From the IMG/VR virus record IMGVR_UViG_3300031565_000009: a stretch of DNA of 64,000 nt. The stretch is one strand, 5' to 3'. Shown piece by piece: positions 39,422 to 55,591 of the stretch. This DNA comes from a virus (lineage: Duplodnaviria > Heunggongvirae > Uroviricota > Caudoviricetes). Below the pieces are notes generated by a model. The model was not told where the DNA came from. It saw nothing but the letters and a program-made list of their open reading frames with translations, and made no database searches. Position numbers and translations under genes: made by a program. Position 1 is the first letter of the stretch. Each line of letters opens with the position of its first letter.

Positions 39422-42400
39422 CTACAGGGTTGAAGTGCCACGCCGCAATTCACGTCGAAGTTCAGCGGCGATGGACCGAGCCGTTTGGCGGCTGGTTCCG
39501 CCGCCGTTCACTGACACATTGATGTCGCCGACGTTCGTGACGCTGCCACCTTCGCTACGGAAGACAGGCTGGACGCCAGCGTTCATGGCAACAAGCTGCG
39601 ATGCGAACTTCCTTGTGGACGCAGCATTCATCACAAATTCGCCCGGCGAGAGCATCGCCGGGATCACATCCGTGCCAACTACGCCGCCGGCCGCCAGATA
39701 CCGCACGGGGCCACCCTTGGCCGCCGTAAAATCGGCCGAAGATGGAACGCGCACATTCAGCGATGCTATCGCCAACGATTGCATGGCACCGGCGGCCTGG
39801 CCGATCTGGCTGACCAGCCTGCTCATATCCGTATTGGCCACCTGAGCAAGGTTATTAGCGGCCGCGCCAGCACTGAGGGCGGCCTGATCCGTCGCGCCGC
39901 GTGTCTGCCTGGCCGCCTCCTCAGCGGCCTTCAATGCCTCCTGGATTCCGGGAATCTCCTGACGGGCTCGGGTAGCTTCAGCCTTCAGAGCCTTGACGCC
40001 ACCCTTCAAATCCATTGCTCGCACAGCTTGATCGGCCGCCGTTTCCGCTTCACCTATGAACTCTTGCAGTGCCGCGCGGCTTTTCACGTCAGGCTTAATC
40101 GTTTCGAGATACTTCTTGTAGGCATCATTGAGAGCCTGAAACTGTTTCTCGTCGATCTTGGCCCCAGGCACAGTGAACTTCTCGGCTGCGGAAACAAAGG
40201 TCAGGATGACATCCGACACCGCCTTGTACTTCTCGGGGAAGTTCGACCGCATCAGCCTGTCGTTCAAGACCTTGGCTTCCTTCGTGCCAGATTCCTTCAC
40301 CCATCTCGACAGCACATTGCGGGCATCTTCCTGTTTCTTGGAAATCACATTCGTGGTTTCCTTCAAGGCATCGCCCAACTGTCGATATTTGGTGATAACC
40401 TGCTCTGACTGCCGCAACTGATGCGAGAAGTAGCTAACCGACTCTTCCGCAGACATGCCCTCCGTCTCTTTCGCAAGTTGCGGGCTGATTTCCTTCACCC
40501 GCTCGATCAATATGCGAAACGGGCCAACACCCTTTTCGATGTCCTGGCGAAACTGAGCGAAGGTTCGCTCTTCTGCGAATATCCGCTTCACCTCGACATC
40601 ACTGACGCCACCCTCCACCACGGTCGATATGCGCTGTTGCAGCTTATCCAGTCCAAGAAAATCGGAGATACTTACCTGCTTGCCGCCCAACCAGTCCTTT
40701 TGCAGTTTGGCCAGGTTTTCGCGCAGCGCCTTCTGCTGCTCCTCCAATTGCTTGGGCGTCTTCGCCCCTTGCTTATTGAACGCCTGGAGTGCGTCGAGAA
40801 TAGCCTTCATCGACACCTTCATGCGATTCGCACGAGCCTGCTCCTCGGCAGCCGTTTTGGCGGCCTCTTGAGTCTGCTTCGCCTGCAATGCTTGAAGCTG
40901 CCGTTCGGCATTGATCTTCTGTCGGTAGACGCCCAGCACGTTGCGATGGGCATCTTCCTGCAACAGCACGCTCTTTGTGCTGCTGGCAATCGACTGGGCC
41001 TCCTGAGCCGCCGCTTCTGCACGCTGCTGTACCGCCAGGGCGGCCTGAATCTGCTCCTCGGTCTTGGCCCCGGAAAAAGCATCGGCCGCTTCACGTGCCA
41101 ACTGGCGGCTTCGCCGCATGTACTCATTCGCCCGCTGGCCGGCGTCAGCCTGCTGCGCACGAAACTTGAAAACGGCGTCCGAATACTGCGCCTCGCCCTG
41201 AAGCTGGCGCTGCTGCGACTGCTGTACCGCTCGCAAGGCTTCATTGGCCGCCCGGCGGTAGGCGCTAACAACCCGCCCCTGCGAGGAGACCATCGACTGC
41301 AACGTCGCGCGATCACTCTCAATGATCTCTTTGTTCTTGTCTTTCAGTTCATCGAGGGCATGAAAGTAATTACGCCGAATCACGGCGGCGCGATTCTCCC
41401 AATTCTTATTGGACTCACGAAGCGCCGCCAACTCCGCTTCACGAACCTTTCGATGCTTCTCCTCCTCGTCCTTGATGAACTCCAAAGTCGCCTGACGTTG
41501 CTCCGACGCCATCTTGCGAATGTCGGCAACCGCCTGAGCCGAGGCATACGCGGAGGCCCCCGCAAACAGCGTGACGGCGGCCGTGACTCCGGCAAACGCC
41601 AGCCCGAGAGGACCGAGCGAAATGTTTGCAACCGCAAACCCCACCCCAAGCGCGATGAAGGCCGCCGCCGCCGGAACGGCCGCCGCCGCAAGGGCCTGGA
41701 TAATCGACGCCAGGTTGTCGGCACCGCCGGCAAACTGGATGATCGCGTTGAGCACTTGAATAATGGCCGATCCCAACTCCTCGGTGAGTGTGACCTTGAC
41801 CTTGTTGAGCGAAGCAGTCAGCTTCTCGGCGTCCGTGCTGCGAAACTCCTCGAAGACTTTATTCAGAGACTCCGGCGTAGACTCAGCCATCGCCTCCAAT
41901 GCCTTGTGAACTTGTTCCGCACCACTCTGGCTGAGTCGCAATTCGGCGACCATGCCACGGATATTAGGGATACTCTTGGCAATCTTCGACCCCATGTTGT
42001 CCGCAGCATTAGCGACCGCCTCAATCGCGCCCTGGAAACCCTTAGCCGCAATAAGCTGATCGGGCGAGCCGAAACCCAACTCCCGGACGACCCGCTTCAA
42101 ATCTTCCGAAGGCTTCAAGAACTGCACCATGACCGACCGCAGGCTAGTCATAGTCTTGTGGGCGTTCATACCACCGATGGTCATAGCCACGATGGCGGCG
42201 TTCAACTCGTCCAGACTTATGCCCAACTGGGACGCAAATGGGATTGCCGCACCGATGGTGTCCGCCAGTTCCTTCCCACGGATTCGCCCCAGGCGGATCG
42301 TATTGAAGAACTTCGCGGCCACAGCCTCGGCCTCACTGGAGGCCATGCCGTAAGCATTCAGCGTCCCCGTGACTAACAGGATCGAGTCCTGGAGGTCCAT

Positions 42401-43162
42401 TGCCCCAACGCGAGCCAATTTCATAGAGGCGGCCATCACATTCGCCCGCTCACTCACCGTGGCGAACTGGTTCGAGATCGACTGATACAAGCCCTCCGAG
42501 ACCTGGGGCAGGGGGATGTTGAAGTTCTTAGAAAACTCGGCCGCCTCACGGCTCAGGCTGGTGAAGTCGCGACCAATAGTTGGGGCGATAGTGCGGATTT
42601 CCGCGATGGCCTGCTGAAACTCAATGGCGGATCGGGTGGCCTCTTTCAAGGCATCCCGAATGCTGGACATGGCGCGAACAATAAGCTGCGTTGTTACCAC
42701 CCGAGCCAACGTCTCGAAGCTGACCACAAACTTGTGGGTATGTTGCGTAGCATTACTGGTGGCATTGCCGGCATTAGTCATACCGCCGGCAATCTTCTGA
42801 CCAGCCTGCTGCCCAGCCTGACCAACCTTGGCCATTGCCCGGGCTGCCTGTTGCGCCTGCGACTGAAAGCCGGGCGGCAGCCAAAGCTGCGAGGCCGGAG
42901 TCTGGGCGGGGGCTGCCGCAGCCGGGGCCGCAGCCGGGGCTGCGCCGGCACCCTGCATCGCGCCCGCCACGCGGGTCGCCGCTGAGGCCAAACCACGCAT
43001 GGTGGCAAGGGCTGCGGCAGCGCGGCCATTCCAGGCATCAAGCGAGGCACCGAACGTATTGAACGAGGCCCTGGCCGCCTTCAATGCCTCATCGAGGCGA
43101 TTGAGGGCCGACAAGGCTTCGCTCACATCGAAGCCTAGTTTGTTGATAATCTCGTCGGCCAT
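39422..43162 (-). CDS. tail tape measure protein
   Basis: 1246 aa, Ala/Gln-rich and alpha-helical or coiled-coil throughout. Canonical position after the chaperones. Confidence 0.75.
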   Translation of the reverse strand: MADEIINKLGFDVSEALSALNRLDEALKAARASFNTFGASLDAWNGRAAAALATMRGLASAATRVAGAMQGAGAAPAAAPAAAAPAQTPASQLWLPPGFQSQAQQAARAMAKVGQAGQQAGQKIAGGMTNAGNATSNATQHTHKFVVSFETLARVVTTQLIVRAMSSIRDALKEATRSAIEFQQAIAEIRTIAPTIGRDFTSLSREAAEFSKNFNIPLPQVSEGLYQSISNQFATVSERANVMAASMKLARVGAMDLQDSILLVTGTLNAYGMASSEAEAVAAKFFNTIRLGRIRGKELADTIGAAIPFASQLGISLDELNAAIVAMTIGGMNAHKTMTSLRSVMVQFLKPSEDLKRVVRELGFGSPDQLIAAKGFQGAIEAVANAADNMGSKIAKSIPNIRGMVAELRLSQSGAEQVHKALEAMAESTPESLNKVFEEFRSTDAEKLTASLNKVKVTLTEELGSAIIQVLNAIIQFAGGADNLASIIQALAAAAVPAAAAFIALGVGFAVANISLGPLGLAFAGVTAAVTLFAGASAYASAQAVADIRKMASEQRQATLEFIKDEEEKHRKVREAELAALRESNKNWENRAAVIRRNYFHALDELKDKNKEIIESDRATLQSMVSSQGRVVSAYRRAANEALRAVQQSQQRQLQGEAQYSDAVFKFRAQQADAGQRANEYMRRSRQLAREAADAFSGAKTEEQIQAALAVQQRAEAAAQEAQSIASSTKSVLLQEDAHRNVLGVYRQKINAERQLQALQAKQTQEAAKTAAEEQARANRMKVSMKAILDALQAFNKQGAKTPKQLEEQQKALRENLAKLQKDWLGGKQVSISDFLGLDKLQQRISTVVEGGVSDVEVKRIFAEERTFAQFRQDIEKGVGPFRILIERVKEISPQLAKETEGMSAEESVSYFSHQLRQSEQVITKYRQLGDALKETTNVISKKQEDARNVLSRWVKESGTKEAKVLNDRLMRSNFPEKYKAVSDVILTFVSAAEKFTVPGAKIDEKQFQALNDAYKKYLETIKPDVKSRAALQEFIGEAETAADQAVRAMDLKGGVKALKAEATRARQEIPGIQEALKAAEEAARQTRGATDQAALSAGAAANNLAQVANTDMSRLVSQIGQAAGAMQSLAIASLNVRVPSSADFTAAKGGPVRYLAAGGVVGTDVIPAMLSPGEFVMNAASTRKFASQLVAMNAGVQPVFRSEGGSVTNVGDINVSVNGGGTSRQTARSIAAELRRELRRGTSTL

Positions 43163-43170
43163 TCGTCACC

Positions 43171-43679
43171 TCACTTGATCCGCTGCGCCCTGACAAAGGG
43201 CGCAACCGCCGGCAGCTTGACCTTCTCCGCAAACCGCTGAAACGCATCGGTCCCCTTGACCTGAAACATATAGGGGCCTTCCTTCCAGACCCGGTAGAAG
43301 AGCGTTGGGTCCGGCTCGATGTTGGCGTTGTGGTACTCGTTCCAGATCAGCCAGGGAAGCGTCGTGCCGTAGCCGAAGGTGTAAAGACCCTTATTGATGT
43401 CGGCAACCACTTCGCCGCTGCTCTGCGAGACACCCTGGGCCGTGCGGTTGATAGCCGGGGGCGTGATGTCGATGGCGTAGTTGATCTCCTGTGCCAGCTT
43501 CAGGAAGGTCGCCCTTGATGCTCCGCTCCAGACCGGAATCTCGCGCAGCACCGTATCCAGCCATTCCATCGTGGCCTGGGCAATTGCCTCGCCCATATCA
43601 CGGTGCAGTTCCTTCCTGTAGGCCATGATGTTAATGGCCGGCAAAGCAAAGGTGCGCGTAAACTTCATGGTCAGGAGCC
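43171..43679 (-). CDS. tail assembly protein (T-position ORF)
   Basis: The plausible start is MKFTRTFALPAIN at 43679. The track ORF extends to 44100 in an R/W-rich, probably non-coding frame. Confidence 0.3.
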
Positions 43680-43864
43680 TCGCCGTCGTCGGGGTGGCCG
43701 TGCGGATGGCGGCAGCGTTGCCTCGGAGGGCTTCCTTGCCCCCATAAGTTGAGCCTCCCGCTCGGACTCGTCGTAACTCGCCGTCTGATCGAAGGCGACG
43801 ATCAACGCCTGGGTCTCCAACCCGCACTCGTCCCACGACTGGCGCACGCCGGGTGGGCGAATGC

Positions 43865-44467
43865 CTAGTCTTGCGCAGGCTTTCCAGATGGAGTGTTCGC
43901 CAGTGCGGTAAGTTGGCCAGAGAACTCGGGCGGCATCGGACCCTGACCAGCAAGAAAAACCTCGCGAGCCTTTTGCAGCTTCGCTTCATCCAGCGCGTTG
44001 GCCTCCATGACCAGCGCCAGCACGCGGTTGCACTCGATCTGGGTGAGGCCGCCATCCAGCAGGTCTTTCTCCCAGTTGGCCCAGGTCCGCTGGTCGTCAA
44101 GTTTCACCATGTCCCATTCGATCTCGCTCGGCTGGAGTGAGCGGGTCACAATGTAGCCGAGGCGCTTCTTCGACCAGGCGGCCAGAATTTGCTGGTAGGT
44201 CGGGTCCTCCGCGTTGGCAACCCAGCCATCCTTCGTCAGCTTTCCGGGTGGCTTGGGCTGAGGGCAAAGGGCTTCAAATTCGTCTGTGTCCTTCAGGCCG
44301 CGAGCCCGAAACACGATCTTGTCTTCGCCGCGCGGCAGGACCAGCACGACTTCATTGCACAGGGTCTTGGGGTCGATTCCACCAATCTTCATGTTCTTTC
44401 TCCACTCGCTAGGAAAAGAAAACGGCGGGCGGCTGGCTACAACGCCGGCCGCCCGCCGGTCGATCAA
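43865..44467 (-). CDS. tail assembly chaperone (G-like position)
   Basis: 200 aa immediately upstream of the tape measure. The likely start is MKIGGIDPKTL. Confidence 0.4.
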   Translation of the reverse strand: MIDRRAAGVVASRPPFSFPSEWRKNMKIGGIDPKTLCNEVVLVLPRGEDKIVFRARGLKDTDEFEALCPQPKPPGKLTKDGWVANAEDPTYQQILAAWSKKRLGYIVTRSLQPSEIEWDMVKLDDQRTWANWEKDLLDGGLTQIECNRVLALVMEANALDEAKLQKAREVFLAGQGPMPPEFSGQLTALANTPSGKPAQD

Positions 44468-44545: not shown

Positions 44546-44983
44546 TTAGATGCGGTTGACAATCGGCTCGATCACGTTGCACTTGCCGGTGATCGAGATC
44601 GTGGCGTCCTTCAGATTGATCTCGGCCGTCTCATGTCGGAAATCGGGAAACTGCGTGGTCTCGTCCTGGTTGGTGCCGCAGGGGACGTTGTGCTCCACCT
44701 CCATGTCCACGGCATACGGCTCGCACTGGTCTGCGGCAGAACTGAACCAGCCGGCCGCTGCACCCTTCTGCTTCAGGGCGTCGAGCGGACTGATGTTCTC
44801 GTTGGTGCCGGTCGTGATATGCTCGTAGACGCACTCGATGCGCACGTCCATCGGGACTTCATCGCCCTCCCGCACCGTGTCCAGGTCGCCCCGGTCGAGC
44901 AGATAGTCGTAGGACTTATGCTCAGTGTAAGTGAGGTTGCCGTCGCCGATCTTGATCTCCAACTGCTGGGGCAGGAAGGTGAT
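44546..44983. repeat. direct repeat copy 1 (~438 bp, ~192 bp perfect)
   Basis: About 90% identical to 45611-46048. The stretch 44792-44983 is 100% identical to 45856-46048. Confidence 0.85.
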
Positions 44984-45559
44984 CGGATCATCCTCCGACG
45001 GGACATCGCCAGCGGGAATCACGGGGGCGAAGGTCAACTCCCAAGTCGTCGCACCCTCGCGATCCACCACGACCGAAATCACCGGAGTGGTGCCGATCAG
45101 TTCCCCATCATCCGCCGTCACGGCCCCAACATTCGTCGCGGCCAACGTGCCAGTGAACTCAATTCGATAGGGGCCTCCATCAATGCCAGTCACCGCGACA
45201 TTGCCGGTCCCAATGGTGGAAAGCACTTCCAAAGCAGCATCAACTGCTGAAGCTGGCGCATCATAGGCAAGGGCAGTCGTGGTTTGACCGCCAAATGACA
45301 GGGTAAAGGTGCCGCCCGTGGCCCCCGTTATGGTCACGGTCACAACCTCGTTCGAGTTGACAGCCGTGATCGTATATTCAGTAATGCTCACCTCGAAGTG
45401 AGCACCCACCGGGACAATCGTGACGCCGTTCGTAAGGCCGGTCAGCGTGTCGATCTCCATCGTTGATTCACCCTGCGCGGGTGTATCGTCAACCAGAGCC
45501 GATCCGCCAAACCCATCCTTCAGGCGAACTATGCAATCACGCAGTTCGATTCGTGCCAT
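44546..45559 (-). CDS. major tail protein paralog A (337 aa)
   Basis: MTP position. Shares its N-terminal 16 aa and C-terminal ~147 aa with paralog B. A unique T/G/V-rich middle domain looks Ig-like. Confidence 0.45.
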   Translation of the reverse strand: MARIELRDCIVRLKDGFGGSALVDDTPAQGESTMEIDTLTGLTNGVTIVPVGAHFEVSITEYTITAVNSNEVVTVTITGATGGTFTLSFGGQTTTALAYDAPASAVDAALEVLSTIGTGNVAVTGIDGGPYRIEFTGTLAATNVGAVTADDGELIGTTPVISVVVDREGATTWELTFAPVIPAGDVPSEDDPITFLPQQLEIKIGDGNLTYTEHKSYDYLLDRGDLDTVREGDEVPMDVRIECVYEHITTGTNENISPLDALKQKGAAAGWFSSAADQCEPYAVDMEVEHNVPCGTNQDETTQFPDFRHETAEINLKDATISITGKCNVIEPIVNRI

Positions 45560-45610
45560 TGTCTAAGGGTTCCTTTCTTGACACAGGGTCATTGTGCCGC
45601 AAGTCGTTGC

Positions 45611-46048
45611 TTAGATGCGGTTGACAATCGGCTCGGTCGCGTTGCTCTTGCCGGTAATCGAGATCGTGGCATCCTTCAGGTTGATCTCGGCTGTCTCGTG
45701 CCGGAAATCCGGAAACTGCGTGGTCTCGTCCTGGTTCGTGCCACAGGGGACGTTGTGCTCCACCTCCACGTCCACGGAATACGGCTCGCATTGGTCTGCG
45801 GCAGCACTGACCCATTCCGTTGCCTTGCCCTTCTGCTTCAGGGCGTCGAGCAGACTGATGTTCTCGTTGGTGCCGGTCGTGATATGCTCGTAGACGCACT
45901 CGATGCGCACGTCCATCGGGACTTCATCGCCCTCCCGCACCGTGTCCAGGTCGCCCCGGTCGAGCAGATAGTCGTAGGACTTATGCTCAGTGTAAGTGAG
46001 GTTGCCGTCGCCGATCTTGATCTCCAACTGCTGGGGCAGGAAGGTGAT
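45611..46048. repeat. direct repeat copy 2
   Basis: Partner of 44546-44983. The intergenic leaders are also similar. Confidence 0.85.
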
Positions 46049-46348
46049 TACGGCTTCATCAGCAAGAGCGCTGGCCAAAGCCGGCGTGAAGACGATGTTC
46101 GTCGTCGGGCTGGTGTCAGTTGGCGTGCGTGCCGTGACCACATGAATCGGCGTGTCGGTTTCACCTGCCACGGTAAACCGCGCCCCAATCGGCACCAAAT
46201 CAGGGTCAACTGTATTCAGCACAATGGAGTCGATGTCAAACTCAGTGTCGTTCGGGGCCGGCGGTGTCGTCGGTTCATTGACGGCGGCCGAACCACTCAA
46301 ACCGTCCTTCAGACGGACGGTGCAATCTCGCAATTCGATGCGTGCCAT
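45611..46348 (-). CDS. major tail protein paralog B (245 aa)
   Basis: Same termini as paralog A with a shorter, distinct middle segment. Confidence 0.45.
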   Translation of the reverse strand: MARIELRDCTVRLKDGLSGSAAVNEPTTPPAPNDTEFDIDSIVLNTVDPDLVPIGARFTVAGETDTPIHVVTARTPTDTSPTTNIVFTPALASALADEAVITFLPQQLEIKIGDGNLTYTEHKSYDYLLDRGDLDTVREGDEVPMDVRIECVYEHITTGTNENISLLDALKQKGKATEWVSAAADQCEPYSVDVEVEHNVPCGTNQDETTQFPDFRHETAEINLKDATISITGKSNATEPIVNRI

Positions 46349-46363
46349 GTCGTCTATCTCCTG

Positions 46364-46870
46364 TTAGGTATCTTCGTTGTCGGATAGCTCCATCACATAC
46401 TTGGCGTCAATCATTGACTGCCTCAGCCCGTCTGTTTCGTTGACCTGGCCGAAGTGAAAAACCTTCACGGCGTCCTGACGGCCAGACAACGGTGACAAGC
46501 ACCCAACCAGGGTCTCGTCGTCGCCTGATTGGCTTCCATACCGATAGATGGCGATGGCCGCATCCATAGCTGATTGAAAGATGCCAGCTAACTGCGTAAA
46601 CGTGTAACGATTCCTCGTGTCCGGCCCGTCGAATCGACTCGACAGCAGAACATTCGCGTCCACTTTCAGTACCCAGTAGTTGTGGCTCAACTCACGAACG
46701 GAAGGCCCCGTGATCCTGATCTCCACACGGTCTGCGGCCTCCATGAACTGGCTGGACCGTTCATCAAGCCCCTCCACCATGACGGCTACGTCATTCGCTT
46801 GGGCAACCTTCTTCAAATAGTCAGCCAGCGAGGCGAAAATCCACCGTGCCCAATTCGGGTTCGCAGGCAT
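46364..46870 (-). CDS. tail terminator / neck protein (positional)
   Basis: 168 aa, immediately upstream of the major tail proteins. Confidence 0.3.
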   Translation of the reverse strand: MPANPNWARWIFASLADYLKKVAQANDVAVMVEGLDERSSQFMEAADRVEIRITGPSVRELSHNYWVLKVDANVLLSSRFDGPDTRNRYTFTQLAGIFQSAMDAAIAIYRYGSQSGDDETLVGCLSPLSGRQDAVKVFHFGQVNETDGLRQSMIDAKYVMELSDNEDT

Positions 46871-47466: not shown

Positions 47467-47826
47467 TTACTCTTTCGCACAATCCCCATCCCGCGGGCTG
47501 TTAGCTTTATGAGACCACCGTTGGTCCATCGCATATTCCAGCCGGCGCATGATAAGGCTGTTCTTCGCAACGACTTTCATGCACTTGGCCACCAGGGGCA
47601 GTAACACCTTACGTTGTCCATCCTCCAGCTTGCTGATGCGGGCCAGCAGATGTTTCTCCCGGACCCAGCCCTGCCAAAGGAAGAACGCCACAATCAGGAC
47701 AAGCGGCCCGTACTGTCGCAACAGAATCAACACGTCAGTGAAATCCAGCATGGTATGCCTCCATTCATAACGGGCGGTGATAGAGAAGATCGCCCACCGG
47801 GGATTGCTCCCCGGTGGGCAGATCAT
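47467..47826 (-). CDS. small membrane-spanning protein
   Basis: Probable start MLDFTDVLILLRQYGPLVLIVAFFLWQGW. One TM segment. Confidence 0.2.
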   Translation of the reverse strand: MICPPGSNPRWAIFSITARYEWRHTMLDFTDVLILLRQYGPLVLIVAFFLWQGWVREKHLLARISKLEDGQRKVLLPLVAKCMKVVAKNSLIMRRLEYAMDQRWSHKANSPRDGDCAKE

Positions 47827-47862
47827 TGTTACCCGACGTTGCGGGGATGCCCGTTCAAAGGC

Positions 47863-49359
47863 TTACCCCAAGAGCACGACGCACAGGTTCTCGTCGAGAA
47901 CCGCGACACCGGCGAGGATGTCCAGGTTGACGACGGTGCCGCCCGCGTTGATGTCGTACTGCATCGAGACCCGCATGGCGATGTCGTTGTAGACGCCGAC
48001 GTGCGAGAGCACACCCATCGCATTACTCGGCACAGCCAGGGGCCGGGTGACGAGGGCGAGGGCGTCCCGATGGAACGCCATATTCAGCGAGCCGGCCGGG
48101 CCGGGGTACGCTTTGTCTTCGTTCGTCAGGAGGATGTCCAGCGGCCGGTCAAGAATCACGCTCTGCTCACCAGCGGCCGACAGCCACGACTCGATCACGG
48201 TGTAGACCCTGCGGCCTGCGCCCGTGCCGAAGGCAACCAGTTGGCCGATCTGCGGAGCGACGGTCCAACCGTCCAACACGACGGCCTCACTGTAGCCAGC
48301 CGCATAGGAACCGTTCACGTCGCACGAAGCATAGCGCGTGACCACGGCGTCTTCCGGGACGGCGTACTTCAGGGCCTCACTCAGGGTGATGCCCGTGGTG
48401 TCCGAGGTGGCCGTGACGGCAGTGGCATAGGTCGGCTGATCGTTGCCGGCCACGTTGACATACTCGCCAACAAGGACCACGACGCCCGTGAAGCCGTCCA
48501 CGGTCAGTTCGGTCACTGTGCCGGCGGGATAGCCGCCGGTGTTGTTGATCGCACCAGCGTTCGTGTCACACGAGCCCACAGCGGGGCTGTTGACATTCTG
48601 GTCCATATAGGTCTCGAAGCCGAGGATGCGGCCGAGGGTGGCGTTCTCCAACGCCGTGCCGCCGTCACCTCGCTCGTTGGCCTTGATGAACAAGTCGTTC
48701 TTCAGCAGCGCGGTCTCGCTGGCCGGGGCCAGAACGAGGTTGCGGCCGTTGACCGGGGCCTTGTTCACGTTCAGGATTTCGCGGGCCTCCAGCACGTAGT
48801 CCTTACTGTTGCTGCTGAGAAGGTTGCCGAGCCGGCCACAACGCTTCGCCAAAGTGCCGAAGTAGGCGTGGACGCGACCCAAAACGGAACGATCCACGCC
48901 ACGGGCGATAGTCTGCATCCCGGGACGGAGGTAGATGTCCACCAACTCCTGGAAGGACTTGCTGGCCTCACCATCCTTGATCGTGAAGCTGTTGTAGAAC
49001 CACTGGTCCAACGGTACGCGGACATTGGTGGAATTGGCATTCTGCTGAACCAGCGCGGTGCCGTCCTTTTTGCGGCTGATCTTGAACTCGCCGGGCCGGC
49101 GGGTGTTCACCACGTCGCCGAAGTCCTTGATCTCGTTCTCGAAGTCCCGGTGGACGAGGTTGGCGATGACCATGTTCTCTTCGAGGATGGCCAGACCCTC
49201 GTTGGCCCACAGTTCCGGGATGTAGGCGTCATTGTCGTTGTCGAAGCAAGCGACCTGAGCCAGGGACAGGTACAAATTGATCTTCATGAATGTTCCTTTC
49301 GGTTTGTCTGGGAACAAAAAGGGCCGCTCACAAGCGGCCATGCCTGAGAGGCCGCACAC
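47863..49359 (-). CDS. major capsid protein
   Basis: 498 aa directly downstream of a scaffold-like gene. N-terminus NDNDAYIPELWANEGLAILEEN is typical of major capsid proteins. Confidence 0.55.
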   Translation of the reverse strand: MCGLSGMAACERPFLFPDKPKGTFMKINLYLSLAQVACFDNDNDAYIPELWANEGLAILEENMVIANLVHRDFENEIKDFGDVVNTRRPGEFKISRKKDGTALVQQNANSTNVRVPLDQWFYNSFTIKDGEASKSFQELVDIYLRPGMQTIARGVDRSVLGRVHAYFGTLAKRCGRLGNLLSSNSKDYVLEAREILNVNKAPVNGRNLVLAPASETALLKNDLFIKANERGDGGTALENATLGRILGFETYMDQNVNSPAVGSCDTNAGAINNTGGYPAGTVTELTVDGFTGVVVLVGEYVNVAGNDQPTYATAVTATSDTTGITLSEALKYAVPEDAVVTRYASCDVNGSYAAGYSEAVVLDGWTVAPQIGQLVAFGTGAGRRVYTVIESWLSAAGEQSVILDRPLDILLTNEDKAYPGPAGSLNMAFHRDALALVTRPLAVPSNAMGVLSHVGVYNDIAMRVSMQYDINAGGTVVNLDILAGVAVLDENLCVVLLG

Positions 49360-49420: not shown

Positions 49421-50368
49421 CTAGCGGTGGCCCTTGATGGGCCGCAATCCCAGAAGTTCAGGGTTCTTCTCGCGAATTTCCCGGTATTGCTGCGGAGTCA
49501 ATTTCCGCACGTCCACCCGGCCGCTTTGACCCGGCAGTAGGCCGCCGGTCGCCGACCCCGACCCGATCCCGCTGACCACGCCGGCTTTGAAGAGGTTGCC
49601 GTACTGTTCGGGCAACTCTTTCATCCGCTTCACGGCCTCTTCGGGAGTCCGAGTCATCATCACCTGTTCGCCCGTTTTGGGGTCCACGTCGGGCATTTCG
49701 ACCATAACCTTGTAGTGGCCATTAGGCCGCTTCGTGGTCGGGTCCATCTCTTCCATCATCTTCGTCATCGGCTTCAAGAGCGTGACGATCTGGCCGGGGC
49801 TGAAGGCATCGTTCTTGATCCCGGCATCTTGCAGACTCCGCTGGACAGTCGAGTCTCGATACAACGATTCCCAGGTCGTAGCCTTCTTCTCGGCATCGGT
49901 GAGTTTCACCTGATACGACTGCTCCAACTCCTGCTTCTCCAAGGCCGCCTGGGCTTCCTTGCTCCGCAACTGTCCCTGGACCGCCGACAAGTTCTCCTGC
50001 AACGCCTTCCGCTCGGCCTCCGTCAGATTCTTGCTGCTCAGCACCTCCTGCAAGCGCGTCTCCATCGTCTTCAACTGGGCTTGATGCTTGCGACGGTCTT
50101 CCGCCAACATTTTGTTGACATCATCCTGAGTGAACGATTTGCCGGCAGCCGCAGCCGCAGCCGCAGCCGCAACCTCTTCAGCAGCGGCCTTTTCGGCGGC
50201 GGCCTTCGCAGCAGCAGCGGCAGCAGCAGCAGCAGCGGCATCTTCACCATCAAAGCAAGCAAACTGCGCACGCGACAGAAGAAGATCAAACAATTTCATC
50301 AGTAGACCTCGATACCCGCCAAGAAATGCACAAAGGCCATAACGGTCGCGTAGACGGTCTGGCGACAC
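49421..50368 (-). CDS. scaffolding protein
   Basis: Ala/Glu/Lys-rich coiled coil with poly-Ala runs. Immediately upstream of the capsid gene. Confidence 0.5.
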   Translation of the reverse strand: MSPDRLRDRYGLCAFLGGYRGLLMKLFDLLLSRAQFACFDGEDAAAAAAAAAAAKAAAEKAAAEEVAAAAAAAAAGKSFTQDDVNKMLAEDRRKHQAQLKTMETRLQEVLSSKNLTEAERKALQENLSAVQGQLRSKEAQAALEKQELEQSYQVKLTDAEKKATTWESLYRDSTVQRSLQDAGIKNDAFSPGQIVTLLKPMTKMMEEMDPTTKRPNGHYKVMVEMPDVDPKTGEQVMMTRTPEEAVKRMKELPEQYGNLFKAGVVSGIGSGSATGGLLPGQSGRVDVRKLTPQQYREIREKNPELLGLRPIKGHR

Positions 50369-50964: not shown

Positions 50965-51678
50965 CTACACGTTAGCAGCGGCAACAATCGCATCGCAGAT
51001 GTCATCGTTGCCTTCGGTGATAGTGATCTCAAGGGCAACCGCCTTAATCGTCTCAGCACTCAGACGACGTTCTCCAGGAGATGCAAGTGCGACCAATGCC
51101 GAAGGAGTGACGCTTTCTGCCGGCACTGTACCAGAGAGAATCCCCATCTGGATCAGAATGGCGTATCCAAGACGATCTGCTTGACCCTCTGTCGTGGCCG
51201 TGATCGCACCACCAGAGCCGCCGCCAGTCAACAGGGCGTCATCCATCACGACCAGATCGTGGTTGGCTTCATCAACCGACGCGCCGTCAAACGTCAGCGT
51301 GACCGGAGTTGTAGTAAGAGGGCCGCCAGCGACCGAGATGTCGCCGTTCGTCCAACCAACAATACTCGCCGACGTTGCAGCCGTGTCAATCGCGCCTTCG
51401 ATAGTTGCAGCGTTGGCATCAAAAGCAATGGCCGCCGTCGTGAAGGTCTCGCCACTTGCCAAGGTAAACGCCAACGTGAAAGTGCCACCACTGACGGTTC
51501 CCTCATAGATGGCAATCGACTGAACCTCGTCGGTTGCCTGCAAAGCCGCCGGTAGATCGAAATCTCCAGCATCTTGAATGGCCTTCAGTTCCCGATACTC
51601 GCGCCGATCAAGCGCGTGAATCGGAAGTGTCGTGTCAATCGTCACTGATGCAGCAAGAAAATCCGCAATTACGCCCAT
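50965..51678 (-). CDS. Thr/Ala/Gly-rich head protein (decoration-like)
   Basis: 237 aa of low-complexity, beta-rich composition. Confidence 0.25.
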   Translation of the reverse strand: MGVIADFLAASVTIDTTLPIHALDRREYRELKAIQDAGDFDLPAALQATDEVQSIAIYEGTVSGGTFTLAFTLASGETFTTAAIAFDANAATIEGAIDTAATSASIVGWTNGDISVAGGPLTTTPVTLTFDGASVDEANHDLVVMDDALLTGGGSGGAITATTEGQADRLGYAILIQMGILSGTVPAESVTPSALVALASPGERRLSAETIKAVALEITITEGNDDICDAIVAAANV

Positions 51679-52012: not shown

Positions 52013-53851
52013 TTATTCCTCCACCTTCGTGTCCTTGCCCGCGCCGCGAACACGGCTTGCGGGGGTGTCACTCAGGTCAGTGATTCTGCTCAGTTCTTTT
52101 TCTGCCTTGCCAGCATTGGCCGGATCGGCAGAGAGATCGGCAACGCCGCGCGACGCAGGGTCGCCACTAGCACCTTTGTTCGCCGATTGACTCTCAGCAA
52201 TTCTCTTGATCCGGGCCACATGATCCTCGCGGGCCGTAAGATATTCCTCTGCACTGAAGCCAAGGGCCATCGACGCCGTTTTCTCGCCGACCAGGCCATT
52301 TTCCTTAGCCGTGTTGATAATGTCGGGGTCGCTCGTCGTGTATGGGGCCTCGTCGATTTCCTTCTCAATCATGGCAATCGTGTCAACATGAACCTTACCC
52401 GCAAGCAAGGATGCCACAATCATCTTGGCCAGTTCACGCTTCACGGTGCGGCCAGGCACGGCAAACATCAAGTCGGACAGCTTGCTCGATTCCTCGATCC
52501 GGTCCTTGTCCGTCTTCAGGCTGTACTGGTCCGGGTACTTGATCGTCGCCACCCGGCGTTTGGTCAGTTGTCGTTCCTCGTAGGCGGCCCAATGTTCGGC
52601 CACTTGCTGCTCAGCGCCTTGCAGAACGAGGCCGATGTACGACAGCCCGGCCTCCAGACCCTCGCTGTCCTTCGCCTTCGACTCAGCGGATGCTCGGGCC
52701 GAGAGGTTCGTCACGGCCAGATTTATCAGCTTGCGGATGTCCGCTTCCAGCTTGCCCTGCAACTCCAGGCTCGCTCGCAACGGCTCGGCGGACGGATTGA
52801 TGAAATCGGGCGGATTCATGCCCTTGTCGTAAGCCCGGCCGTGGGTTACGCCGACCTTGATGTCCGTGTCGGCCGAGCCCTGTCCGCCGGTGCTCGCCGT
52901 GCCATCTGCATTGGCGGCCGGTTTCAGGTGCGAACCGACCGCACGTAGGTCCCGCTGCTCGACATAGAATGGGAAGTTGGCCTTCAAGGCATAGTACACG
53001 TCGCTCGAACCGAGGTTCAGCATCGCGATCTGATGGTAGCACACGTCCTTCAGGAGTGAGTCACCGATGTCCAGCATCACGAAGGGGATGCGCGTCAGTT
53101 GCAGTTCAATCGGGCCGGAGGACACACCATCGGGGCCAATCTGGTTGCCTTCCAGATCGTAAAACTGAAGATTAACCCGACCCGTATCCTGGTCGATCCA
53201 CAACAAGCGGTAGCGCTGCGTAGTCAGGTTGGGAAGCATGGTCGTCTGATTGTATTCCAGCGTGGTGTCACGCAGGAGCACGGACCTAAACTCGCTCGGC
53301 TCTTCCGCCTTAGCGCACGACCAGTTCAAAATGTCTTCGATGTCGTACTTGTAGAGGTACGGCCGCGCGTCGGGAACATCCTTCAGGGTCGGCACGTCGG
53401 GGACAACAGGGGCGTCCACGTAGACGCCAACGCGCCCCATAATCAGCAACTCCGTGAGCAACTTCACACCGAAGAAGGCATCCATCGTCGAACCACGACG
53501 ATCCACGCCCAAGTCCAGGCCAGTGAGCGCCCGCTGATAGCTCTCCGAGCCGCCGCGCCGCACAATATCCCGCATCCTCTGAAAGATGCTGTTCCGCACG
53601 TCGTTCAGGGCAGCCTTAGCGAAGTTAGGGATCGGCGTGATCTTCTTCCGGGAGTTGAAGTCCGTCTGATCCTCGCGAGCGGTAAACTTCTCCAGATAAG
53701 CATCACGGAACTCTCCGCCGCCACGGTAAGTTCTGCGCCACAGCAGCCAGTCGTTCGTGCCATTAAACAGAGCCGGATGGCGACTGTCAATGATGCGACT
53801 CGGTGTTCTGGTCACAGTTACATCTCCGCAAGTACCGAGCGGCTGCTTCAA
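52013..53851 (-). CDS. portal protein
   Basis: 612 aa immediately downstream of TerL. Confidence 0.5.
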   Translation of the reverse strand: MKQPLGTCGDVTVTRTPSRIIDSRHPALFNGTNDWLLWRRTYRGGGEFRDAYLEKFTAREDQTDFNSRKKITPIPNFAKAALNDVRNSIFQRMRDIVRRGGSESYQRALTGLDLGVDRRGSTMDAFFGVKLLTELLIMGRVGVYVDAPVVPDVPTLKDVPDARPYLYKYDIEDILNWSCAKAEEPSEFRSVLLRDTTLEYNQTTMLPNLTTQRYRLLWIDQDTGRVNLQFYDLEGNQIGPDGVSSGPIELQLTRIPFVMLDIGDSLLKDVCYHQIAMLNLGSSDVYYALKANFPFYVEQRDLRAVGSHLKPAANADGTASTGGQGSADTDIKVGVTHGRAYDKGMNPPDFINPSAEPLRASLELQGKLEADIRKLINLAVTNLSARASAESKAKDSEGLEAGLSYIGLVLQGAEQQVAEHWAAYEERQLTKRRVATIKYPDQYSLKTDKDRIEESSKLSDLMFAVPGRTVKRELAKMIVASLLAGKVHVDTIAMIEKEIDEAPYTTSDPDIINTAKENGLVGEKTASMALGFSAEEYLTAREDHVARIKRIAESQSANKGASGDPASRGVADLSADPANAGKAEKELSRITDLSDTPASRVRGAGKDTKVEE

Positions 53852-53923: not shown

Positions 53924-55591
53924 TCAGAGGAACTTGCTGATGTTCTCGCCAGTGGTCATGGACGCTGCCAGAGGTAGAGCCATTTCCGCGTAAGTAAGCG
54001 AGTGGGCGTAGTGGTCGGGTCCCGTTGCCACGTAGACCATCTTGTAGTTACCCTTGTCGTCCTTCTCAAAGGTCCGCACAAGGTTCTTCAGATGTTCGCG
54101 GTACTCCAACGAGATGTCGCGCGGCAACTGAATGCGAGGCGGCTTCGCCTTAAAACGCCCCAGAGAGCATGACAGCCAATTGGTGCGATCCACCTGGGCA
54201 ATCGGAGCGTTATCCTGCTCCTCGATGGACATTTCCTTTGCAGTCTGGCCACGGCGATACCGGGTCAACCAGACGTAGCCCCAGAAACGACGAGCGAAGC
54301 GGCGAGCCTCATTGATGTTCGGGTCAGCATCGACGACGCAGGCGAGAACCTGCCACTCACGCATCAACTCGTCAAGGTATTTCCAGTCTTCCTCGCCAAA
54401 ACGGCCAAACCAAAGCACCTTCCCCCGCGCCACCGCATTGATGTCGCGGTCCATACGATCCAGCGACCACTCCGCCACCGTAATGTAGCCAACCTTACCC
54501 TGGTCCACACCCATCGTTATCAGCTTCTCGCGACCGATTGCGGGTCGAGGATCGTTGATAGTGTAATTGCTGACAGCGGCATCAATCATGTCATCCGTGA
54601 TCTGAGCGTGGTCGCCGAGAAAGGGGAGACCCAACTTTGAATTATGAAACTCTTTATTGGCCGCCTCGTCTCCCAGGCCGCGATGGTAGGACACGACCAA
54701 TTCAGCAGGCGAGACCGTGTAGGAGTACATCTGGCTGATATGAAGGCCGCGAATAACTGGATTCGCCTGCTCGTTCATCACTTTCCAGATGGCACTGCTT
54801 AGCCACTCGGGCTTCGCCGCGTGCTCCAGTCGGCCCTGGCATTCCTTGCACTTCAGGAACGACTCGCTGCATCGCGGGTCCAAGACCGTTTCACCGATGA
54901 TCTCGATGCAGTCCGGCCAAACCAGTTCTGTCCACCGACCGCAGCGTGGGCACTTGAAAACAAAGTGCTCCTGGGTCGAGGTGAGGAACAGCTTATGGAT
55001 TCCATAATTCGGAATCGTCGGCGTCGAAATGGCCCAGACATGCTTTTCTAACTGGCCACTGAGTCGTTCCAACGCCAGCCAGATTTGTTTCTGATCCATC
55101 TCGTCCACCTCGTCCAGGATCAGGTCCGAGACGGGAATGGACTTCAAGTTGCTATCACCGCGCGAGCCACGAATGTAGAGCGAGTTGGCCGCCGTCCGCT
55201 TCAAGTTGACCGTATCAGTGTCCTTGAAGATCAATTTCAGATAAGGACTCAAGTTGAGGGCCGCATTGAAGCGGGCCTTACTGAAGTCGCCAGCATTCAG
55301 TGCGGTTGGCAGCACGTAGAGCACGTCACGTCGCAGCCAGTCGAGCACATACAGCGCCCGATTGATCGCCACCTCGGTCACGCCCAACTGTGCGCCCTTC
55401 ATCACGTAGTTGAAGAGCGCATTCGAGTCCAGAATGTCCTTGACCCAGGGGTGATACTTCCAACCATACGAACCTGGAAACGGCTGCCCCATGATGCGCC
55501 GCTTCGCTGACCACCGCGAACAACTGGTCAGCGTTCGAGTCTGGCCACTGTCACAAACCGACGTGACAAATGCGTCGTTTAGCTGGTTCAT
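53924..55591 (-). CDS. terminase large subunit
   Basis: ATPase N-terminus. LILDEVDEMD is Walker B. A Zn ribbon CPRCGRW precedes the C-terminal nuclease region GVDQGKVGYITVAEW. Confidence 0.7.
   Translation of the reverse strand: MNQLNDAFVTSVCDSGQTRTLTSCSRWSAKRRIMGQPFPGSYGWKYHPWVKDILDSNALFNYVMKGAQLGVTEVAINRALYVLDWLRRDVLYVLPTALNAGDFSKARFNAALNLSPYLKLIFKDTDTVNLKRTAANSLYIRGSRGDSNLKSIPVSDLILDEVDEMDQKQIWLALERLSGQLEKHVWAISTPTIPNYGIHKLFLTSTQEHFVFKCPRCGRWTELVWPDCIEIIGETVLDPRCSESFLKCKECQGRLEHAAKPEWLSSAIWKVMNEQANPVIRGLHISQMYSYTVSPAELVVSYHRGLGDEAANKEFHNSKLGLPFLGDHAQITDDMIDAAVSNYTINDPRPAIGREKLITMGVDQGKVGYITVAEWSLDRMDRDINAVARGKVLWFGRFGEEDWKYLDELMREWQVLACVVDADPNINEARRFARRFWGYVWLTRYRRGQTAKEMSIEEQDNAPIAQVDRTNWLSCSLGRFKAKPPRIQLPRDISLEYREHLKNLVRTFEKDDKGNYKMVYVATGPDHYAHSLTYAEMALPLAASMTTGENISKFL

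What the first reader, a model, noticed from the sequence alone, without database searches (positions are those of the whole stretch)
44546..46348. Tandem major-tail-protein paralogs with conserved termini and a swapped middle domain; 192 bp of perfect identity
Two adjacent genes of 337 and 245 aa in the MTP position share the N-terminal 16 aa (MARIELRDC.VRLKDG) and the C-terminal ~147 aa. Their central segments differ: a T/G/V-rich Ig-like insert in A and a short Pro/Thr segment in B.

At DNA level the C-terminal regions are ~90% identical with one 192-bp stretch at 100% (44792-44983 = 45856-46048). The leader sequences are also related.

This implies recent duplication with ongoing gene conversion, or cassette-like domain shuffling of a tail-surface domain. 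A phage encoding two alternative tube subunits that differ only in an exposed domain is unusual.
Basis: seen in the sequence. Interest (0 to 1): 0.6.

Follow-up and report, generated by a model that had tools for sequence, protein, structure and literature searches.

The report
Paired tail-tube genes kept matched
This phage has two adjacent genes for its tail-tube subunit, one plainer and one with an extra surface module. The pair is old and widespread among relatives, and repeated DNA copying between the two genes keeps the tube-forming part nearly identical.

Summary
Two minus-strand genes lie between the head-tail connector genes and the tape measure gene: S (45611-46348, 245 aa) and L (44546-45559, 337 aa). 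They share the first 16 aa and the last 145 aa (92% aa, 93.8% nt). One stretch of 196 bp is perfect: 44788-44983 = 45853-46048.

Both proteins are predicted to have the tail-tube fold. The tube core is the 16 N-terminal plus the 145 C-terminal residues. The middle is an insertion: a small beta-barrel in S, and a barrel plus a ~100-aa module homologous to the mycobacteriophage Bxb1 capsid/tail extensions in L.

The duplication is not recent. The S+L pair recurs in 56 distinct metagenomic loci of a siphovirus family whose integrated members sit in Planctomycetota genomes. Other loci have S only, L only, L-S order or a two-module L.

N-terminal parts group by type (S or L), whereas tube domains group by genome (89% versus 61-63% identity). 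In the window the first 195 nt of the shared domain have no synonymous difference, against pS 0.27 in the rest (P about 1e-6). This is domain-limited concerted evolution.

Co-assembly of both subunits into one partly decorated tube is my inference. It would be a two-gene analogue of SPP1 gp17.1/gp17.1*.

The parts
45611..46348 (-). Gene S (the finding's B): short tail-tube subunit, 245 aa, own ATG and AGGAG Shine-Dalgarno site
44546..45559 (-). Gene L (the finding's A): long, decorated tail-tube subunit, 337 aa, own ATG and weaker AAGGAA Shine-Dalgarno site
45614..46048 (-). Tube-core domain of S (codons 101-245): the homogenised repeat copy
   Evidence: 92% aa and 93.8% nt identity to the L copy. 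Family members of 157-163 aa consist of an N-terminal ~17-19 aa plus this domain only.
44549..44983 (-). Tube-core domain of L (codons 193-337): the homogenised repeat copy
45853..46048 (-). 196-bp perfect-identity tract, S copy (most recent conversion tract). Its 5' edge is the first codon of the shared domain.
44788..44983 (-). 196-bp perfect-identity tract, L copy
46301..46348 (-). Codons 1-16 of S (MARIELRDCTVRLKDG): N-terminal strands of the tube core
   Evidence: The motif is conserved in S, L and minimal family members, where it joins directly to the tube domain. By my count from the two 5' sequences printed, the two window copies are 39/48 nt identical and most differences are synonymous, so the motif looks kept by selection rather than conversion.
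45512..45559 (-). Codons 1-16 of L (MARIELRDCIVRLKDG): N-terminal strands of the tube core
46049..46300 (-). S-specific insertion (codons 17-100), predicted small beta-barrel
44984..45511 (-). L-specific insertion (codons 17-192): L-type barrel segments flanking the decoration module
45044..45361 (-). Bxb1-type virion decoration module inside L (about codons 67-172)
45560..45610 (-). 51-nt S-L spacer with the L ribosome-binding site and no terminator-like hairpin, implying co-transcription
   Evidence: Fold z-score -1.0.
50965..51678 (-). Second protein of this phage carrying the same module (237 aa), in the head-gene block between the portal and an Ad1-like adaptor
   Evidence: HMM built from the module: E 2e-11. 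BLASTP to L gives 28-31% identity. Neighbour annotation.
46364..46870 (-). Context: 168-aa gene immediately upstream of S. Its neck or tail-completion role is inferred from position only.
   Evidence: Synteny conserved in relatives.
43865..44392 (-). Context: 175-aa gene in the tail-assembly-chaperone position immediately downstream of L
   Evidence: Gene call in L002. Syntenic in relatives. No family hit.
39422..43162 (-). Context: tape measure protein, 1246 aa
   Evidence: PF10145 PhageMin_Tail on the identical gene in L002.

Best explanation
S and L are two co-transcribed paralogous tail-tube (major tail) subunits of a siphovirus.

Anatomy. Each protein has the same tube core, made of the first 16 residues plus the last 145. 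The core is interrupted by an outward-facing insertion. In S the insertion is a small beta-barrel. In L it is a different-type barrel carrying a ~100-aa decoration module of the kind found on the capsid, tail tube and tail tip of mycobacteriophage Bxb1.

History. The pair is old and is conserved in many related phages. These appear to be Planctomycetota phages and prophages. In each genome the 435-nt segment encoding the tube core is repeatedly overwritten from one copy to the other. The mechanism is homologous recombination between the two direct repeats 1065 bp apart, either gene conversion or unequal exchange between replicating genomes. The tube-forming surfaces therefore stay matched while the outer parts stay distinct. 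In this window the latest tract is the 196-bp perfect stretch, laid over an older conversion.

Inferred function, not shown. Because the cores are nearly identical, both subunits fit the same lattice and co-polymerise around the tape measure protein. The result would be a tube only partly studded with the module. That matches what SPP1 achieves with gp17.1 and frameshifted gp17.1*, but here it is encoded by two genes. The module probably gives weak, reversible adhesion to host surface polymers. That last point is inference from Ig-like and FN3 tail decorations; in Bxb1 the module is dispensable and its role is unknown.
For: Tube identity:
- The genes sit between connector genes and the chaperone-position gene and TMP.
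- In the syntenic relative L021, S alone fills the major-tail-protein slot.

Core plus insertion:
- Family members of 157-163 aa are the N-terminal ~17-19 aa joined directly to the 145-aa domain.

Module:
-. The same module is in a head-block protein of this phage.

Old pair:
- 56 unique tandem pairs.
- The N-terminal nearest neighbour is the same type in 43/44 genes and the own-genome paralog in only 2/70.
- Both type-specific parts are under purifying selection, median pN/pS 0.27 and 0.36.

Homogenisation:
- Tube-domain identity is 0.89 within a genome against 0.61-0.63 between genomes. The own-genome paralog is the closest relative in 47/70 genes.
- Within-genome nt identity steps up at the domain start and drops at the stop codon.
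- Tube-domain pS is as low as 0.02-0.19 in 5 pairs and below 0.5 in 21 of 56. Perfect runs of 100 nt or more occur in 10 pairs.
- Window pair: pS 0 against 0.27, P about 1e-6.

Co-expression:
- Both genes have their own start codon and SD in most loci. There is no terminator between them.
Against: - No expression or virion data exist, so co-assembly, stoichiometry and the arrangement of S and L are inferred.
- SD strengths give no consistent S:L ratio: S is stronger in 16 loci and L in 16.
- In 35 of 56 pairs the tube-domain pS is 0.5 or more, and in about 25 it is 0.6 or more. The within-genome saturation level seen in the N-terminal parts is about 0.65-0.75. In those genomes DNA-level proof of conversion is gone. 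The higher within-genome protein identity could partly reflect co-adaptation of interacting subunits.
- L-only and S-only relatives show that neither form is strictly needed.
- The S model is only of moderate confidence (pLDDT 77.8).
Confidence: 0.72

Rival explanations
1. Division of labour rather than random co-polymer. S builds the tube shaft. L forms a specialised part, such as particular rings at the head-proximal or distal end, or obligate alternating S3L3 rings.
Against: The tube cores are 87-99% identical within genomes, so the lattice contacts are essentially the same. S-only and L-only phages exist, so each form can build a whole tube. Nothing in the sequence specifies position.
Confidence: 0.17
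2. Selection alone. Interacting subunits co-adapt, so their tube domains stay alike at the protein level in each genome without any DNA transfer.
For: In 35 of 56 pairs pS is 0.5 or more while pN stays at about 0.05-0.17, against 0.24 between genomes.
Against: It cannot explain identical synonymous sites. The window has 195 nt with pS 0. L083 has a 429-nt perfect run and pS 0.02. Ten pairs have runs of 100 nt or more. The identity step coincides with the edges of homology.
Confidence: 0.06
3. A recent tandem duplication in this phage, followed by a swap of the middle domain.
For: High DNA identity and a 196-bp perfect tract in the window.
Against: The first 62 codons of the same pair have pS 0.71 and pN 0.35. 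S-type and L-type N-terminal parts each have orthologs in dozens of diverged phages. The nearest relative L001 already carries an S plus L pair.
Confidence: 0.03
4. Assembly artefact or collapsed strain variants joined in tandem.
For: Repeats of 435 nt can confuse short-read assemblers.
Against: The identical pair is on 5-6 contigs. There is 100% identity over 5 kb in an independently recorded contig. 56 distinct pairs have divergences from 1% to 31%. The spacer upstream of L is unlike the sequence upstream of S, so this is not a join of two alleles. Both genes are under purifying selection.
Confidence: 0.01

Closest known systems
Bacillus phage SPP1 major tail proteins gp17.1 and gp17.1*
   Same: There are two tube subunits with the same tube core. 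One carries an extra exposed domain. They assemble together in one tail at about 3:1, and the extra domain is dispensable (PMC8718954). This is the closest functional analogue of the S/L pair.
   Different: SPP1 makes both forms from one gene by a programmed frameshift, and the extra FN3 domain is C-terminal. Here there are two separate genes with their own start codons. The extra module is inserted inside the protein. The shared part has to be kept matched by recombination.
Mycobacteriophage Bxb1 capsid (gp14), tail tube (gp19) and tail-tip (gp23) extension domain; Patience gp22
   Different: In Bxb1 the domain is a C-terminal extension of a single tube gene. Here it is an internal insertion in one of two tube genes. 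The hosts differ (Actinobacteria versus apparently Planctomycetota), and the tube cores show no sequence similarity.
Tail tube proteins with an internal or C-terminal decoration domain (JBD30 gp44, lambda gpV, T5 pb6)
   Same: A beta-sandwich tube core carries a protruding decoration domain. In JBD30 the domain is inserted mid-sequence (PMC11445458), as in L.
   Different: Those phages have one tube gene. Their decoration is Ig-like, not the Bxb1-type module.
Concerted evolution of tandem filament-subunit genes (Campylobacter flaA/flaB flagellins; from my own knowledge, not checked here)
   Same: Two adjacent paralogous genes encode subunits of one helical polymer. Intragenomic recombination keeps them more alike within a genome than between genomes.
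   Different: That is a bacterial flagellum, not a virus tail. In the phage pair the homogenisation is confined to the polymer-forming domain, and the outer domains are kept apart.
Fused double tube-domain proteins (T5 pb6, P74-26 gp93)
   Different: In those proteins the two domains are fused in one chain and form trimeric rings. Here the two genes are separated by a stop codon and a 51-nt spacer.

Membership tests
Siphovirus major tail (tube) protein, Hcp/gpV-N/T4 gp19 fold class | Tube beta-sandwich fold | tested here: met
Siphovirus major tail (tube) protein, Hcp/gpV-N/T4 gp19 fold class | Gene located between head-tail connector genes and the chaperone/tape measure genes | tested here: met
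   Order on the minus strand: MCP, three small genes, S, L, 175-aa gene, 165-aa gene, TMP. The synteny holds in relatives.
Siphovirus major tail (tube) protein, Hcp/gpV-N/T4 gp19 fold class | Membership of a curated major-tail-protein sequence family (Pfam or PHROGs) | tested here: not met
   No Pfam hit reaches its cut-off. The PHROG hits of L lie in the module only, and S has only a weak hit of E 0.004. There is no match in 50,697 phage records. This is a tube family not yet described by sequence.
Siphovirus major tail (tube) protein, Hcp/gpV-N/T4 gp19 fold class | Polymerises as stacked hexameric rings in virions | not testable with these tools
   Needs virions, or multimer modelling with access to coordinates.
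SPP1-type dual major tail proteins | Two forms sharing the tube core and differing by one exposed domain | tested here: met
SPP1-type dual major tail proteins | The longer form is made by programmed translational frameshift from the same gene | tested here: not met
   There are two complete ORFs, each with an ATG and an SD, separated by a stop codon and 51 nt.
SPP1-type dual major tail proteins | Both forms present in the same tail at a fixed ratio | not testable with these tools
   No proteomic data. SD strengths are uninformative.
Bxb1-type virion decoration module | Sequence and fold homology to the Bxb1 gp14/gp19/gp23 extension domain | tested here: met
Bxb1-type virion decoration module | The same module deployed on several virion proteins of one phage | tested here: met
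   It is also in the 237-aa head-block protein 50965..51678, E 2e-11.
Concerted evolution by gene conversion between tandem paralogs | Paralogs within a genome are more alike than orthologs between genomes, in a delimited segment | tested here: met
Concerted evolution by gene conversion between tandem paralogs | DNA-level tracts lacking synonymous differences next to diverged sequence | tested here: met
   The window. Runs of 100 nt or more in 10 of 56 pairs, and pS below 0.5 in 21 of 56. Inconclusive for the 35 pairs with pS of 0.5 or more.
Fused double tube-domain tail tube proteins (T5 pb6 type) | Two tube domains in one polypeptide | tested here: not met
   Each of S and L has a single tube domain.

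The most novel reading that the evidence does not exclude
S and L may not mix at random. They may form ordered hetero-hexameric rings (S3L3), giving a pseudo-threefold tail tube. That would be an unfused evolutionary counterpart of the fused double tube-domain proteins of T5 and P74-26. On this reading, domain-limited gene conversion is the mechanism that keeps two separately encoded protomers geometrically compatible. The separately conserved S-type and L-type barrels would then supply the alternation code.
Probability: 0.12. Interest if true: 0.75.

Novelty: new variant of a known kind. Interest (0 to 1): 0.55.

Why it matters
Phages are known to mix bare and decorated tube subunits, but the described route is a translational frameshift in a single gene. 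This locus shows a second genetic route: two genes. It also shows the evolutionary price of that route. The polymer-forming domain has to be kept matched, and recombination confined to exactly that domain does it.

The result is a natural experiment on how hetero-polymeric virus structures stay compatible. It involves dozens of independent lineages and a range of conversion ages.

The work also defines a large tail-tube family that has not yet been described by sequence: 540 representatives at 50% identity. The family has an unusual split core and an internal insertion site that accepts different decoration domains. That site could be useful for display engineering.

Finally, it extends the Bxb1-type decoration module from actinobacteriophages to phages whose integrated relatives lie in Planctomycetota genomes.

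Tried and rejected
- DNA and protein searches of the 50,697-record phage collection with the locus and with S found nothing.
- Pfam gave only sub-threshold hits.
- MAFFT of the two full genes misaligned the 5' halves. I re-did the comparison anchored at the 3' end.
- I tested whether S or L has the stronger ribosome-binding site across 36 loci, to infer stoichiometry. There is no difference (16 against 16, Wilcoxon p = 1.0).
They are not above chance.
- I looked for a terminator or regulatory hairpin between S and L and downstream of L. Nothing is significant (z -1.0 and -0.7).
- I looked for a programmed frameshift in the chaperone region as extra positional evidence. There is no XXXYYYZ heptamer. 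The downstream frame is +1 and its upstream extension looks like non-coding high-GC sequence.
- A Biopython neighbour-joining tree timed out. I replaced it with nearest-neighbour and distance statistics.
- Literature searches for two tube genes, tube paralogs, or gene conversion in phage structural genes returned nothing relevant. The Bxb1 structure paper PMC12124961 is not held.
- Model coordinates are not exposed, so I could not map which residues of the models align to the tube templates.

Full report
**1. The observation**

Two intact ORFs lie on the minus strand exactly where stated: A (called L here) at 44546..45559, 337 aa, and B (called S here) at 45611..46348, 245 aa.
- BLASTP gives 134/145 identities (92%) over the C-terminal 145 residues without gaps. 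It gives about 39% over the first ~60 residues, and the first 16 residues are identical at 15 positions.
- The last 435 nt are 93.8% identical.
- The longest perfect run is 196 bp, 44788-44983 = 45853-46048.
- All 27 differences lie in the last 240 nt of the shared segment. The first 195 nt have no synonymous difference, while the remainder has pS 0.27 (P about 1e-6). Random placement of the differences never gave such a run in 200,000 trials.
- The 5' leaders are not related: 1702 of 2000 shuffles score as well. Only about 17 nt after the stop codons are weakly alike.

**2. What the proteins are**

The genes sit in a standard siphovirus late operon on the minus strand:
- large terminase 53924..55591
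- portal 52013..53851
- scaffold-like protein 49421..50368
- P22-type coat protein 47863..49359
- three small genes
- S and L
- two small genes in the chaperone position
- the 1246-aa tape measure protein 39422..43162

The AlphaFold2 models are confident for L (pLDDT 90, pTM 0.79) and moderate for S (77.8).

A scan of 1.84 billion representative proteins with the 145-aa C-terminal domain found 540 relatives (398 at E of 1e-10 or better) with many architectures. The smallest, 157-163 aa, consist of an N-terminal 'MARIxLK..V...DG' of 17-19 aa joined directly to the C-terminal domain. The tube core is therefore residues 1-16 plus the last 145. The 'conserved termini' are the two halves of that core, and the middle is an insertion.

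In L the insertion (residues 17-192) contains, at about residues 67-172, a module with one helix. The module is homologous to:
- the repeated domain of Bxb1 gp23 (E 5.8e-30)
- the C-terminal extension of the Bxb1 capsid protein (9e-11)
- the C-terminal extension of the Bxb1 tail tube protein gp19 (7e-7)
- Patience gp22 (2e-5)

The same module occurs in a second protein of this window, the 237-aa product of 50965..51678 in the head block (E 2e-11). No Pfam or PHROG family covers the tube core. No record in the phage collection matches.

**3. The pair is old and widespread**

Searching with L found more than 1100 homologs, mostly about 340 aa at 50-60% identity over the full length. Searching with S found more than 1300, mostly about 245 aa at 62-81%. 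Many S and L hits share a contig.

I fetched 171 related loci. Among loci with enough flanking DNA the architectures are:
- S only: 46
- S then L: 36
- S then a two-module L of about 460 aa: 3
- L only: 11
- L then S: 5

Some contigs appear in two samples.

Hits in genome assemblies are overwhelmingly in Planctomycetota MAGs (Thermoguttaceae, Pirellulaceae, Planctomycetaceae), including chromosomes of 1.7-6.9 Mb. So at least some family members are prophages.

The closest syntenic relatives differ at this locus. L021 has S only, and L001 has S plus a two-module L. L-only genes have an S-like N-terminus with a module inserted. In the L-S-order clade the two N-termini are alike (pN 0.06-0.14), which suggests a separate origin.

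**4. Concerted evolution confined to the tube core**

With 164 unique genes and 35 unique complete pairs:
- For the first 62 residues, a gene's closest relative is its own-genome paralog in only 2 of 70 cases. These residues group by type; in an earlier, smaller set the nearest neighbour was the same type in 43/44.
- For the tube domain, the closest relative is the own-genome paralog in 47 of 70 cases.
- Tube-domain identity is 0.89 within genomes. Between genomes it is 0.61-0.63, whether S-S, L-L or S-L.

Within-genome nucleotide identity is about 0.35-0.42 just upstream of the domain, 0.74-0.92 inside it, and 0.26 after the stop.

Across 56 unique pairs:
- Tube-domain pS is below 0.2 in 5 pairs. 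L083 has a 429-nt perfect run and pS 0.02.
- pS is 0.2-0.5 in 16 pairs and 0.5 or more in 35.
- Ten pairs have perfect runs of 100 nt or more.
- The first 62 codons of the same pairs have pS 0.55-0.87 and pN 0.23-0.41, apart from the L-S clade.

Both type-specific parts evolve under purifying selection between orthologs (median pN/pS 0.27 and 0.36), so neither gene is a pseudogene.

Taken together, this is an old duplication with episodic, lineage-independent homogenisation of the 3' 435 nt. The window shows a young 196-bp tract on an older converted background.

One caveat applies. Where pS is near the within-genome saturation level (0.6 or more), only the protein-level signal remains: pN 0.04-0.17 against 0.24 between genomes. 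There I cannot separate very old conversion from co-adaptation.

**5. Mechanism**

Shown:
- two tube-fold paralogs with the same split core
- each gene has its own start codon and SD
- no terminator-like structure between them
- DNA-level homogenisation limited to the core

Inferred:
- Nearly identical cores should occupy the same lattice positions, so S and L co-polymerise around the tape measure protein and give a tail partly covered by the module.
- Selection against mismatched subunits favours genomes in which conversion has just matched the cores.
- Lack of homology in the insertions, and possibly selection, sets the 5' limit of the tracts.
- The direct repeats should also allow deletion of the segment between them, which in S-L order leaves an S-only gene. 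That fits the frequent S-only relatives but was not tested.
- The stoichiometry is unknown. SD strength does not differ systematically between S and L.

**6. Comparison with known systems**

- SPP1 gp17.1/gp17.1* is the closest functional analogue. It has the same core, one form carries an extra dispensable domain, and both forms sit in one tail at about 3:1 (PMC8718954). It differs because it uses a frameshift within one gene and a C-terminal FN3 domain.
- JBD30, lambda and T5 have decorated tube proteins from single genes.
- T5 pb6 and P74-26 gp93 carry a fused duplication of the tube domain.
- Tandem flagellin genes of Campylobacter are, from my own knowledge, the classical case of concerted evolution of filament subunits.
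- Literature searches found no description of tandem tube paralogs in siphoviruses or of gene conversion between phage structural paralogs.

**7. Verdict**

The 'recent duplication' reading is wrong, the 'gene conversion' reading is right, and the 'cassette' reading is right at family level.

This is a new variant of a known kind. It combines dual tube subunits encoded by two genes, domain-restricted concerted evolution, a tube family not described by sequence, and a Bxb1-type module in a phage whose integrated relatives lie in Planctomycetota genomes. Interest is moderate (0.55), because function and co-assembly remain inferred.

Noticed in passing
window 50965-51678 (-): A 237-aa protein in the head-gene block, between the portal and an Ad1-like adaptor, carries the same Bxb1-type module as tube subunit L (HMM E 2e-11, 28-31% identity). 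The phage may display one module on both head and tail, as Bxb1 does.
   Followed up: partly
L001 1201-2157; L083, L092, L099 (second gene, 459-461 aa): Some relatives have an L gene with two tandem copies of the decoration module. Module copy number therefore varies between close relatives.
   Followed up: partly
L143, L145, L150, L154, L160/L161: A clade has the reverse gene order (L then S). There the N-terminal parts of the two paralogs are also alike (pN 0.06-0.14), and the 17 nt upstream of the two start codons are identical in L145 and nearly identical in L143 and L150. This is probably an independent duplication, or conversion reaching the 5' end.
   Followed up: partly
L016, L151 and other L-only loci: Single decorated tube genes of 351-382 aa have an N-terminus closer to the S type (63-67% identity to S residues 1-64/71), with a module inserted. 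This is a one-gene solution within the same family.
   Followed up: partly
window 47791-47820 (-): A very stable hairpin (12-bp G+C-rich stem, -43.9 kcal/mol for the 78-nt stretch, z -5.6) lies just downstream of the major capsid gene. It is a likely terminator, attenuator or RNA-stabilising element.
   Followed up: partly
window 43171-44467 (-): The two small genes in the chaperone position are separated by about 196 nt. The downstream frame stays open for about 430 nt upstream of its ATG and is +1 relative to the upstream gene. No XXXYYYZ slippery heptamer was found, so the usual G/GT frameshift is not evident.
   Followed up: partly
window 40421-42376 (+), 45578-46387 (+), 47614-49347 (+): Long antisense ORFs (651, 269 and 577 aa) overlap the minus-strand structural genes. 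Their Arg/Gly/Leu-rich translations look like the usual by-product of high G+C content rather than genes.
   Followed up: no
L012, L014, L019, L020 (genome-contig hits): A few relatives sit in MAG bins labelled Anaerolinea, 'uncultured archaeon', Saccharibacteria and Zixibacteria. Three of these contigs are only 34-63 kb, which suggests mis-binned viral contigs, but the 'archaeon' hit is on a 490-kb contig. The host range may be wider than Planctomycetota.
   Followed up: no
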